A DNA stretch of 63,009 nt, taken from Vulcanimicrobiales bacterium. GTDB taxonomy: Bacteria; Vulcanimicrobiota; Vulcanimicrobiia; Vulcanimicrobiales; Vulcanimicrobiaceae. Position numbers: made by a program. The stretch spans positions 1-63,009 of the forward strand of contig JBBQQR010000012.1 of the NCBI GenBank assembly GCA_038215615.1, read 5' to 3'. Shown here piece after piece: positions 48,001 through 51,000 of this stretch (the stretch's first letter is position 1; the number at the start of each line of letters is the position of its first letter).

Positions 48001-51000
48001 GCACGACATCAAGCATTCCGCGCGCAGCGGGATCGCGCTCCAGAGCAGCTCGCAGATCCGATCCGATCGCGGAAAACACGTCATCCATGCAGTGGACGTT
48101 CTCCATGGATCGGCTCGAACGGCTTTCCGTCCGGGCCGAAAGCCAGCGGCTGCAAGCCGCGGCCGTGCAGCAGGCGCGAATTGACCGCACCGATGCGGAT
48201 CAAAATTCGATCATGCCCGAGCAACGGAAAAAGCAGGTTTAGCGGCGGCCCCTCTCTTTCACCCGTGAGCGCCAAGCGCGTTGCCAGCAGCGCATCTTCA
48301 GGCGAAAGACCGAACTCTTTTGCGATTTCAGAAAGGTCGCGATCCACCGGCAAACCGCGCAGCTCCGGCTGCTGATCCACGTATTGGCCGACTGAGTCGA
48401 CAAAAAAGAGTGTATCTCGAGAACGCAACCGCTCCAACTCGAGCGCCGGAATGATACATGCCTCCGACCGCAGCGCGCCGACGAGCGGCCGCGCGGTTTC
48501 GATCGAGCTGTCGGGATAGGCTTGGAGAAAAGTCTCGATCCATTGCCAAGCGGCGGCGGGTACCGGGTCTTCCAGAAATCCCCAGCGTTGCATCGCTGCC
48601 GCGAGCGCTTGTGGTTCCAACACGTTAGAGCGTTTCGATCAGCGCGACCGCGGAGGCGGCCACGCCCGTGCCGTCCCCGGTGTAACCCAGGCCTTCACTG
48701 CTTTTCGCCTTCACGCTGACCTGCCCGGTGGAAATCCCCAAACTGCGCGCGATATTCTCTCGCATCCGTTCGACAAACGGCGCCAGCCGCGGCGACTCCA
48801 GCACGATTGTCGCGTCCACATTTTGGATGGAGTAGCCCGCGCGCTGCACGTCTGCGGCGCATTGCGCGAGCAGCTGGAGCGAATCGGCGTTTTCCCAACG
48901 CGGATCTGAGGCCGGAAAGCGTCCACCCAGATCGCCGATCGCCGCCGCGCCCAGGATCGCGTCGCTCACCGCGTGCGCCAGCACATCGGCATCCGAGTGT
49001 CCGATGGCGCCGCGATCGCTTTCGATATGCACCCCACCCAGCACGAACTTTCGACCGAGCTCCAGACGGTGCGCGTCGAAACCGAACCCGGCGCGCATTA
49101 ACGGGCGTCCGCAAAGCGGCGGCGGAGAATATCTTCGGCGCGCGCCAAGTCCTCCGGCAGCGTCACTTTGAAATTGTCGGGAGAGCCCGGCACGATCTGC
49201 ACCGTGACCCCGATGCGTTCCAGCAGCATCGCGTCGTCGGTAGCGGAAAAATGATCGCGGCGCGCGGCCTCGTGGGCCAAACGCATATCCGCAAGCGTCG
49301 CAAATTGCGGCGTCTGCGCGGCCCAAAGTCGTTCGCGCGGCGAGGTTTCTTTCACGATACGCGAATGCGGCTCCACGATCTTCACCGTATCGACCACCGG
49401 CACGGCGAGCAAACTTGCGAAGCCGTCGCCGATGATCTGCATGCCGTTGCGCACGATCTCCGCGTTGATGAGGGGGCGCGCCCCGTCATGGACGAGCACG
49501 GCGTCGCACCCGTCGGGAACCGCTCGCAGTCCCTCATAGACGCTGGCCTGCCGCGTTGCGCCGCCGGGCACGACCGCCGAACACTTCGTGCCGCCGGCAT
49601 GTGCGGCGAGCGCCGAGATCTCTGTCAGCCATTCGCTTTCGGTGACGACGACGACCGCATCGACTTCGGGCATCTCGGCGAACGTGCGAATCGACCATGC
49701 GAGCATAGGCCTTCCCGCGATCTCGAGCAATTGCTTGGGCCGGCCGAATCGCGTTCCCCGGCCTGCCGCGACGACGATGGCGGTCCACGACGGCGGGCGG
49801 CGCATCAGTTCGGCACGTCCTTTCGCGCTTTTGCGAAGATCATGCGGCCGGCCACTGTTTGCAAGACGCTCGAAACCACCACGTCGGCCGATTCACCGAT
49901 GAGCCGTCGCCCGTTTTCCACCACGATCATCGTTCCGTCGTCGAGATATCCGACGCCTTGATGGGACTCTTTGCCATCGCGAATCACCTGTATGTGCAGT
50001 TCTTCTCCCGGAAGAACGACCGGTTTGACCGCATTTGCGAGCTCGTTGACATTGAGCACCGCAACGCCTTCGACGTGCGCGACACGGTTAAGATTATAAT
50101 CGTTGGTGACGAGTTTGCCGCCGAGCTCGCGTGTCAGGCGTACCAGCTTTGCATCCGCTTCGCGGACGCCATCGTAATCGATTTCGCTGATTTCGAGTGA
50201 ACCGAGCTCTTGCAGCCGGTTGAGGACGTCTAGTCCGCGGCGTCCGCGCGTCCGCTTGAGTGCGTCGGCGGAATCCGCGACCGCCTGCAGCTCGCGTAAG
50301 ATGAAACGCGGCAAGATGAACGGACCCTCAAGAAATCCGGCCTGCAATATCTCCACGATGCGTCCGTCTACGATAATGGAGGTGTCGATAATCTTCGGGA
50401 CACTGCCGGCGGCTACGTTCGACGCCGCCAGCGAAAGCGGCACGATTTTCCTCGAGCCTACGCGCGCGCCCAGGTAAGCGAAAAAAACGCTCAGCACGAT
50501 GTAGAGCAGAATAGCGACGTAACTTCCGGATCGTCCGGTCGTCGAGATGAATTCGAAGAGAACGCTGCGGATGAGGAAAGCGATCACGAGGCCGGCGATC
50601 AGACCGATCGCTCCCCCGGCAATTTCGTACGGCGCCAGCCGCTCGATCGCGCGCTCGATCGCGTTGAGTTCTTTTTCGAAGATGGTCTGCGCGGCCGGCG
50701 CCAAGAAAAGTCCGAGTAATGCGCCGGCGAGCGGAACGCCGATCGTGAACGCGAGCTGCAGACTTTCGGCTGCGAAATGAGACGCCACGAGATAGACATA
50801 CGCCTCGCGTCCCAATAAGAATCCGGTAATGGCAAAAACGACCGCAAAAACGGCGCGAAGGATCGCGGCGGCGACGTGGGGGCCTAAGGAAGCGTTATGA
50901 ACGTTGCGCATATGTCGTTGGCTACGAATCGACCGCGCTTGGTCAGCCGCGCGCCGGCTGCATCGACCTCGAGCAGTCCCGCCGCGCGATACGGCTCGAC

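What a model noticed while it worked through the whole genome (the two positions that open the first line are those of the whole stretch)
48081..48593. Free-standing GluRS anticodon-binding domain kept at the ispF-(gltX)-cysE-cysS locus
g01388 (170 aa) is only the C-terminal anticodon-binding part of the lineage's native GluRS. The catalytic part is gone and a different gltX lies on C16, yet the lone domain stays 60-70% conserved across genera, which points to a function of its own.
Evidence so far: Pfam Anticodon_2; PDB hits to GluRS C-termini. Match in 15 of 21 order genomes. Directly after ispF with no room for a catalytic domain in G000, G003, G007, G009, G011, G014, G020; still the C-terminus of a full GluRS in G018 and G006.
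(Added by a program. Inside this text positions count along the whole contig: contig position 1 is position 1 of the stretch shown here. "Call 12" and the like, gene names such as g00115 and contig names such as C1 are that model's own, and its searches are not shown. The text may have been shortened before it was handed on; [...] marks where a part breaks off. The agent that wrote the report below was given it as the finding of a first reader that could run no searches.)

Follow-up and report, generated by a model that had tools for sequence, protein, structure and literature searches.

The report
Orphaned GluRS anticodon domain, repurposed
This small gene is the tail end of a glutamyl-tRNA synthetase whose enzyme half decayed and was deleted after a foreign synthetase took over; it has lost much of its tRNA-reading surface but kept a new, almost invariant surface on its back, so it probably has a second job, most likely binding another protein.

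Summary
Real gene, probably 180 aa (48623-48081, minus strand), folding as GluRS domains IV-V plus a lineage-specific tail. The class carries two old GluRSs: A at ispF-cysE-cysS and B before glmU. A Pseudomonas-type enzyme (C, contig C16) replaced B in place. Of 151 genomes, 12 lack C, and all 11 examined keep an intact A; none of the 139 with C shows one. A survives as pseudo-enzyme or lone domain, or is lost (48 of 50 genomes of one genus, 6 of 6 of another). dN/dS is 0.06-0.17. Basic anticodon-face residues vanish with catalysis, while 70 positions, many on the opposite face and tail, stay at least 93% invariant in intact, dead and lone forms. Domain-less genomes keep the same C and tRNA-Gln, and the gene persists without cysE, so neither an obligatory tRNA-Gln helper nor coupling to cysE fits. 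Best reading (0.5): a moonlighting, non-essential protein-binding module that arose on the intact enzyme; no partner identified. One anticodon-stacking arginine stays invariant, so tRNA binding is not excluded. No paper found; the scan noted this five times before on other genomes.

The parts
48081..48623 (-). Lone GluRS-A C-terminal module, 180 aa (170 aa from the internal ATG at 48593): domains IV-V plus tail
48459..48623 (-). Domain IV (residues 1-55). The loop that carries the third-anticodon-base reader (T. thermophilus Arg358) is shortened by two residues here and variable among lone forms
48375..48446 (-). Invariant lineage-specific helices, residues 60-83 (ALELERLR; D76, Q80, Y81, D83), by sequence register on the face of domain V opposite the anticodon site
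48237..48305 (-). Former anticodon face, residues 107-129: Lys cluster 107-109 lost, position 129 mostly acidic in lone forms (Asn in this genome), Arg116 kept
48099..48215 (-). Extended last helix and tail, residues 137-175 (HDR, G145, A146, S149, HGRGL, GPDG-x-PF)
48625..49098 (-). ispF, upstream neighbour; stop codon 1 nt before the gene's start
   Evidence: PF02542
47510..48106 (-). cysE (serine acetyltransferase); its start overlaps the last codons of the gene
46096..47508 (-). cysS (cysteinyl-tRNA synthetase), the most constant downstream neighbour
49098..50911 (-). ispD and the PIN/TRAM gene (yacL-like; name recalled), upstream part of the same gene run
44596..46111 (-). rlmB-type methyltransferase and SigH-like sigma factor (names recalled), downstream part of the run

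Best explanation
A moonlighting, non-essential partner-binding module freed from its enzyme. Shown: the class had two GluRSs (A here, B before glmU); a Pseudomonas-type GluRS (C) took B's place; A then lost its catalytic motifs and, in most lineages, its whole catalytic domain, at least twice; the C-terminal module stayed under purifying selection; the residues that stay invariant were already there in intact enzymes. Inferred: A was the GluRS2-like, tRNA-Gln-charging enzyme and C is non-discriminating, which made A's catalysis redundant; the tail packs on the back of domain V; that surface binds a slowly evolving protein, and the lone protein acts as an adaptor or regulator of it rather than as an anticodon reader. 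My single best guess for the partner is CysRS, the most constant neighbour, but that guess alone is worth only about 0.15.
For: Three GluRS clades with 99% support (quick tree); A at ispF and B or C before a glmU-like gene. 139 of 151 genomes have C (15 of the 16 weaker cases checked by catalytic domain, 63-72% identity). The 12 without C: 11 examined, all with HIGH loop, EDTD and KLSKR intact. 8 of 8 full-length A proteins from C-bearing genus g25 lack the HIGH loop and EDTD, 7 of 8 also KLSKR. dN/dS 0.06-0.17 in 13 of 13 pairs; identity to other genera equals or exceeds that of ispF, ispD and cysS in most rows and exceeds the working enzyme's own anticodon domain in 6 of 7 comparable rows. 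Among 120 full-length relatives, 16 of 18 with KLSK(R/S) have 2-3 basic residues at 107-109, against 26 of 102 without it (none with 3) and 2 of 120 short forms; the motifs ALELERLR, QYVD and HGRGL are 97-100% identical in all three groups. Net charge over 14 anticodon-face positions: +3.2 intact, +0.1 dead, -0.2 lone; 70 positions at least 93% invariant in all states. By register D76, Q80 and D83 match P. aeruginosa Gln399, Trp403 and Glu406, which support a C-terminal extension on the side opposite the anticodon site (PMC12088422 section 8).
Against: No partner was found. GatB, CysS, CysE, IspF, IspD, YacL and RlmB show no convincing co-variation with the module's loss, SigH none, hemA is in 150 of 151 genomes. 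CysRS C-terminal domains are very variable, a poor match for an invariant surface. Arg116, the anticodon-stacking arginine, is 100% kept, and seven more arginines are invariant, so nucleic-acid binding remains open. Front/back assignment rests on a sequence register at under 20% identity, not on model coordinates. The tail is modelled only moderately (pLDDT 67-77; 69-87 in the full enzyme). Kin are not independent: the C/intact-A split may reflect few events. The two trees disagree on where intact forms branch.
Confidence: 0.5

Rival explanations
1. A trans-acting tRNA cofactor: the lone domain still binds tRNA-Gln (or tRNA-Glu) and hands it to the acquired GluRS-C or to GatCAB, improving Gln-tRNA formation.
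For: No GlnRS in this genome, GatB present, so Gln-tRNA needs a non-discriminating step; C has Arg at the 358 position. Intact A has Glu, Gly or His there, like a GluRS2 (H. pylori Glu334 is recalled, not seen in a call). Arg116 and Leu128 of the pocket are invariant. In the P. aeruginosa subfamily anticodon domains already act across chains (PMC12088422).
Against: 48 of 50 g39 and 6 of 6 g50 genomes lack the domain yet have C and a tRNA-Gln(UUG) identical or nearly identical to that of domain-bearing relatives (G080, G061, G065 against G073). The invariant motifs predate C (G021, G118, G164). The Lys cluster is gone, the 358 position is variable (Arg 45, gap 26, other 49 of 120) and position 129 is acidic in 44 of 50 lone forms. 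Chlamydia has this GluRS subfamily without GlnRS.
Confidence: 0.2
2. An RNA-binding regulator of its own operon (cysE-cysS-rlmB-sigH), standing in for the T-box that Firmicutes use at this place (T-box control recalled).
For: No Rfam riboswitch at gathering score in 8 of 8 loci scanned. Invariant arginines. cysS lies within 1.8 kb downstream in 50 of 52 lone-domain loci.
Against: The protein is acidic (net -6 to -14). Gaps to the next gene are mostly under 40 nt, leaving no leader. Domain-less genomes keep the same gene order. Linkage is explained by ancestry.
Confidence: 0.1
3. A small-molecule sensor: tail and back helices form a pocket for a nucleotide or metabolite.
For: Near-total invariance of His, Arg, Asp, Gln and Tyr residues across three states would fit a fixed small ligand, and would explain the lack of co-varying proteins.
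Against: No pocket was examined; fold searches give only GluRS and class I LysRS above background; no output domain.
Confidence: 0.1
4. A passive relic kept only for translational coupling between ispF and cysE.
For: Start 1 nt after the ispF stop and overlap with the cysE start in this genome; cysE within 150 nt in 44 of 51 loci; whole-gene loss is tolerated in at least three lineages (g39, g50, G035).
Against: dN/dS 0.06-0.17 and residue-level invariance. It persists at about 60% identity where cysE is gone and in G123, where neither neighbour is adjacent. ispF-cysE junctions without it exist.
Confidence: 0.04

Closest known systems
Domains IV-V (Pfam PF19269 Anticodon_2) of canonical bacterial GluRS, e.g. 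T. elongatus 2cfo, T. thermophilus 1j09
   Same: Same fold over residues 1-158; the conserved Arg and G-x-x-L motif kept.
   Different: No catalytic domain; Lys cluster lost; 358 loop degenerate; last helix extended plus a 25-residue tail; a separate gene.
GluRS2 of dual-GluRS bacteria (H. pylori, A. ferrooxidans) and the inactive T. maritima duplicate
   Same: The parent enzyme A is the second GluRS with a non-Arg 358 position; an inactive full-length duplicate is on record (PMC3927822 section 12); 2o5r is the best PDB sequence match.
   Different: Those are full-length. Here decay goes on to deletion of the catalytic domain while the C-terminal module is conserved.
GluQ-RS (YadB)
   Same: A one-domain derivative of GluRS with a new role (PMC9437257 passages).
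   Different: The mirror image: GluQ keeps the catalytic domain and lacks the anticodon domain.
P. aeruginosa-type dimeric GluRS C-terminal extension (PMC12088422)
   Same: An extension after the last helix of domain V, supported by the same helix positions on the side opposite the anticodon site; the model aligns to C. pneumoniae 9y81 over residues 18-177.
   Different: That extension is a Lys-rich helix thought to touch the acceptor arm; this tail is Pro/Gly/aromatic and sits on a canonical-type domain. The genome's working GluRS, not this gene, belongs to that subfamily.
Free-standing aaRS domains in general (editing and tRNA-binding fragments; Trbp111, CsaA, AlaX, YbaK recalled)
   Same: Free-standing catalytic, anticodon-binding and editing fragments are a recognised kind (PMC5388404 introduction).
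   Different: No free-standing GluRS domain IV-V protein appeared in the passages read or in the searches run; here the tRNA-binding surface is what decays.

Membership tests
Bacterial GluRS (TIGR00464) | Rossmann catalytic domain with HIGH and KMSKS motifs | tested here: not met
   16 bits against a cut-off of 290; no room after ispF; no second PF00749 match in the genome.
GluRS anticodon-binding domain (PF19269) | Sequence match above the curated cut-off | tested here: met
   27.3 bits against 23.6, residues 95-145.
GluRS anticodon-binding domain (PF19269) | Domain IV three-helix bundle plus domain V helix cage | tested here: met
   Model pLDDT 92; Z 15.7, rmsd 2.8 over 156 residues to 2cfo.
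GluRS anticodon-binding domain (PF19269) | Arg that stacks on U35 and bonds base 34 | tested here: met
   Arg116 is 100% kept in intact, dead and lone forms; role from PMC12088422 section 7, mapped by alignment.
GluRS anticodon-binding domain (PF19269) | Basic residues around the anticodon cleft and a fixed residue reading base 36 | tested here: not met
   0-1 basic residues at 107-109 in 118 of 120 short forms; 358 position variable or deleted; face charge about zero.
GluRS anticodon-binding domain (PF19269) | Binds the tRNA anticodon arm | not testable with these tools
   Needs a binding assay.
GluRS2 (parent enzyme A) | Second GluRS in a genome without GlnRS, charging tRNA-Gln only | tested here: inconclusive
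   Two or more PF00749 matches in 19 of 19 f3 and 5 of 5 f2 genomes; A has His, Glu or Gly and B has Arg at 358. Specificity not measurable here.
PaGluRS-like dimeric subfamily (the C16 enzyme) | C-terminal LGG-hydrophobic-SKK motif and close similarity to P. aeruginosa GluRS | tested here: met
   Best PDB match 5tgt, E 6.9e-187; ends in LGGVS with a Lys-poor version of the motif. Dimer not tested.
GluQ-RS | Catalytic domain without anticodon domain | tested here: not met
   The opposite half is present.

The most novel reading that the evidence does not exclude
A bacterial synthetase anticodon domain that gained a second, tRNA-independent binding surface while still part of a working enzyme, and was then released as a stand-alone adaptor or regulator when a foreign GluRS made its catalysis redundant, with every intermediate (intact, dead full-length, internally deleted, lone, lost) alive in one family and selection apparently removing tRNA binding from the freed domain.
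Probability: 0.5. Interest if true: 0.78.

Novelty: new variant of a known kind. Interest (0 to 1): 0.6.

Why it matters
Free-standing synthetase fragments are known, but the known GluRS fragment keeps the catalytic half. This one keeps the other half and sheds its tRNA-reading residues, which exposes a moonlighting function that was hidden in the intact enzyme. The family offers a rare natural series from enzyme to pseudo-enzyme to lone domain to loss, with matched relatives that have and lack the gene (G073 and G125 against other g39 genomes), so the partner can be sought directly. [quoted passage not shown]

Tried and rejected
Homodimer prediction: no verdict, score 0.00 in two runs, not evidence either way. 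RNA runs: none was listed, so expression is untested. A split GluRS with the catalytic half elsewhere: no second catalytic domain. A hidden GlnRS: none. Coupling to or partnership with the native CysE: orthologue not found in 5 of 5 genomes tested. tRNA-Gln(UUG) change on loss of the domain: none seen (20 of the 25 genomes gave a locus with the standard tRNA-Gln(UUG) gene). hemA as co-lost partner: present in 150 of 151. Co-variation scan of seven candidate proteins: only GatB Thr103 differed in both g39 and g50, one of 977 conserved columns, treated as chance. SigH: same variant in g39 with and without the domain. T-box or other Rfam element: none in 8 loci; promoter and terminator counts at chance level. 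Tail profile against this genome's six frames: no second hit. ESM Atlas: only its own clusters, nothing above 0.80 with GluRS families skipped. Viral folds and phage records: nothing significant. Profile search of 1.84 billion representatives: 18 hits under 1e-30; those inspected were this family, full-length A forms, fragments or apparent chimeras, and weaker ones looked like ordinary GluRS C-termini or fragments without context, so lone forms in other phyla are neither shown nor excluded. The careful GluRS tree and the IQ-TREE species tree did not finish; quick and FastTree trees were used. Paper searches listed no paper on this protein.

Full report
1. The observation. The minus strand holds an open frame from 48623 to 48081, between ispF and cysE in the run PIN/TRAM gene, ispD, ispF, this gene, cysE, cysS, rlmB, sigma factor. 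Pfam Anticodon_2 passes its cut-off and the AlphaFold model (pLDDT 92, 127 rows) has the fold of GluRS domains IV-V over residues 1-158. The genome has a single GluRS catalytic domain, on C16, no GlnRS and a gatB. Relatives carry source names from Vulcanimicrobiota (Eremiobacterota), family Vulcanimicrobiaceae or Baltobacteraceae.

2. History. All 19 genomes of the sister family f3 and all 5 of f2 have two or more PF00749 matches, while 32 of 36 in the window's family have one. The loci show two old sites: A after ispF, and B before a glmU-like gene (recognised by partial IspD and hexapeptide matches). A quick tree of 48 proteins gives three clades, A, B and C, each at 99% SH-aLRT. C sits at B's site, matches P. 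aeruginosa GluRS best in the PDB, ends in a version of the motif that defines that dimeric subfamily, and outside the phylum its listed relatives were mostly Sphingomonadales at 60-64% (the search patterns came from the query, so this is not a donor test). So C replaced B in place; it did not replace A. B and C have Arg at the position that reads base 36, A has His, Glu or Gly, which suggests A was the tRNA-Gln-charging GluRS2; that is inference.

3. States across the order. In 151 genomes, 139 have C and 12 do not (15 of 16 weaker C matches confirmed; G137 not fetched). Eleven of the 12 were examined and all keep A with intact HIGH loop, EDTD and KLSKR; G180 was not examined. No C-bearing genome shows an intact A among the 150 best of 272 matches to a full-length A. 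Eight genomes of genus g25 have full-length A with decayed motifs. The domain matches 95 of 151 genomes; 87 match at E below 1e-43, of which 3 are intact enzymes, 8 dead enzymes and 76 lone or presumed lone. It is not found in 48 of 50 g39 and 6 of 6 g50 genomes, the family search agrees (31 of 32 and 3 of 3 with one match), and loci show ispF next to cysE in G065, G114 and G035, with an unrelated gene between them in G080. Outside those two genera 89 of 90 family genomes match; the miss, G154, has a contig end at cysS. Some lone forms keep the enzyme's first residues fused to domain IV (G019, G023, G031), the mark of an internal deletion. G033 is lone but sister to a dead full-length form in the neighbour-gene tree, and dead forms nest among lone forms in the domain tree, so the deletion happened at least twice; the trees disagree on the place of the intact forms, so the exact number is open.

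4. Selection. dN/dS against 13 relatives is 0.06-0.17 (dS is saturated for the distant pairs). Identity to other genera is like that of ispF and cysS and above that of the working enzyme's own anticodon domain in 6 of 7 rows.

5. What is conserved. I compared 120 full-length relatives with 120 short ones (classed as lone by length, without context, and all at least 68% identical to the query, so biased to near kin). Lysines at 107-109 track catalysis: 2-3 basic residues in 16 of 18 proteins with KLSK(R/S), 26 of 102 without, 2 of 120 short. By alignment through C to P. aeruginosa these are Lys430-Arg432, and Arg432 is named in the anticodon site. Position 129, the floor of the base-34 pocket, is acidic in 44 of 50 lone genomes, including 4 of 4 lone g25 forms against 0 of 8 dead g25 forms; this may repel tRNA or may only cap a helix. 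In contrast 70 positions are at least 93% invariant in all three states, among them helix 60-67, D76, Q80, Y81, the small residues of the last helix and the tail. D76, Q80 and D83 align with the P. aeruginosa residues that support its C-terminal extension on the side opposite the anticodon site. These features are already in intact enzymes that coexist with B (G021, G118, G164, partly G039) and are absent from g14, G075, G037, G038 and f3. Against this reading, Arg116 is never lost, several other arginines are invariant, and the face assignment is by register only.

6. Function. The simplest account is a second function on the back of the domain that arose in the intact enzyme and outlived catalysis. 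It is not essential, since large genera lack it. It is not an obligatory helper for Gln-tRNA: domain-less genomes have the same type of GluRS and the same tRNA-Gln(UUG). It is not kept for cysE: the orthologue is not found in G011, G033, G087, G090 and G169, 4 of 51 lone loci run straight into cysS, and G123 has neither neighbour adjacent. I put protein binding at 0.5, tRNA cofactor at 0.2, operon RNA regulator and small-molecule sensor at 0.1 each, passive relic at 0.04. No partner emerged from co-variation.

7. What is known. Read: PMC12088422 (abstract and introduction, passages, sections 7 and 8), PMC3927822 (passages and section 12), PMC2777447 (passages), PMC5388404 (passages), PMC9437257 (passages). 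Other papers were seen only as search listings. No supplements were opened; those of PMC5388404 and PMC3927822 could list such fragments. Eight searches listed no paper on a free-standing GluRS domain IV-V protein or on GluRS in this phylum; the library lacks most subscription papers. H. pylori Glu334, the T-box at gltX-cysE, gene names such as yacL, rlmB, sigH and glmU, and Trbp111, CsaA, AlaX and YbaK are recalled. The scan's own notes describe the same protein in five other genomes; I saw them after reaching this history, and they are not independent support.

8. Unpublished genomes. G017, G028, G030, G048, G059, G137, G163 and G180 are flagged unpublished. They enter the tallies; G017 and G030 are in the tree, and G028 and G030 in the tables. 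They were left out of alignment A1 and. Only one observation rests on them alone: G030 has both a dead full-length A and a second lone copy. No conclusion depends on it.

9. Verdict. Observation confirmed; interpretation partly supported. A new variant of a known kind (free-standing synthetase fragment), with an unusually complete evolutionary series and a clear shift of conservation away from the anticodon face, but no identified function. Interest 0.6.

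Noticed in passing
G000:C16 21707-23170 (L001 1495-2958): The working GluRS is of the P. 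aeruginosa dimeric subfamily and replaced the old GluRS-B in place before a glmU-like gene; it has Arg at 358 yet the genome has no GlnRS, so it should be non-discriminating.
   Followed up: partly
L086, L284-L298: In G029 and 15 further genomes checked (g47, g50, g61, g26, G016) the C-type catalytic domain carries a diverged C-terminal domain (34-42% to this genome's); in G029 it has a domain IV insertion and no LGG extension, possibly a return to a monomer or a chimera.
   Followed up: partly
G000:C7 47733-47806 and C15 13012-13085: tRNA-Gln(CUG) has a 4-bp D-stem and tRNA-Gln(UUG) a 3-bp D-stem; a 4-bp D-stem isoacceptor is described for A. ferrooxidans.
   Followed up: partly
L133 (G065:C5 609559-610082), L148, L142: Four tandem copies of the tRNA-Gln(UUG) 3' part at 165-bp spacing in G065; two copies in G014 and in G115.
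   Followed up: no
L145 (G068:C3 324265-327292): A cluster of four atypical tRNA-Gln-like genes, perhaps on a mobile element.
   Followed up: no
window 44596-45243: The SigH-like sigma factor is 88-97% identical across the order, more than any neighbour.
   Followed up: partly
L041, L047, L094, L095, L096, L181, L193: The operon's cysE is missing in at least seven genomes; in the five tested only a 44-52% paralogue lies elsewhere.
   Followed up: partly
window 47510-48106: This genome's CysE is about 198 aa, some 35 residues shorter than in most relatives, and still ends in Ile.
   Followed up: no
L044, L039, L047, L099, L101, L116: IspD frames of 310-325 aa instead of about 235 in G021, G024, G033, G164, G075 and G114, suggesting an extra C-terminal domain.
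   Followed up: no
L047 2041-4900 and L091, L095-L098: A roughly 3.4-kb insertion between ispF and gltX-A in genus g25; in G033 it encodes an ATPase/TPR/LuxR-like regulator by eye.
   Followed up: no
L035, L102, L103, L091-L098: GluRS-A of g14 (motifs intact) and of g25 (motifs decayed) lacks the zinc-binding insertion of the catalytic domain.
   Followed up: no
L089 (G039:C55 26856-27665): Family f2 has a third, short GluQ-like paralogue without an anticodon domain.
   Followed up: no
L090, GatB residue 103: GatB Thr103 is conserved in domain-bearing genomes and mostly changed in g39 domain-less, g50, g14 and f2 genomes; one column of 245, probably chance.
   Followed up: partly
window 42296-43462 (+): A 388-aa lipoprotein-like frame inserted between tRNA-Tyr and tRNA-Thr genes.
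   Followed up: no
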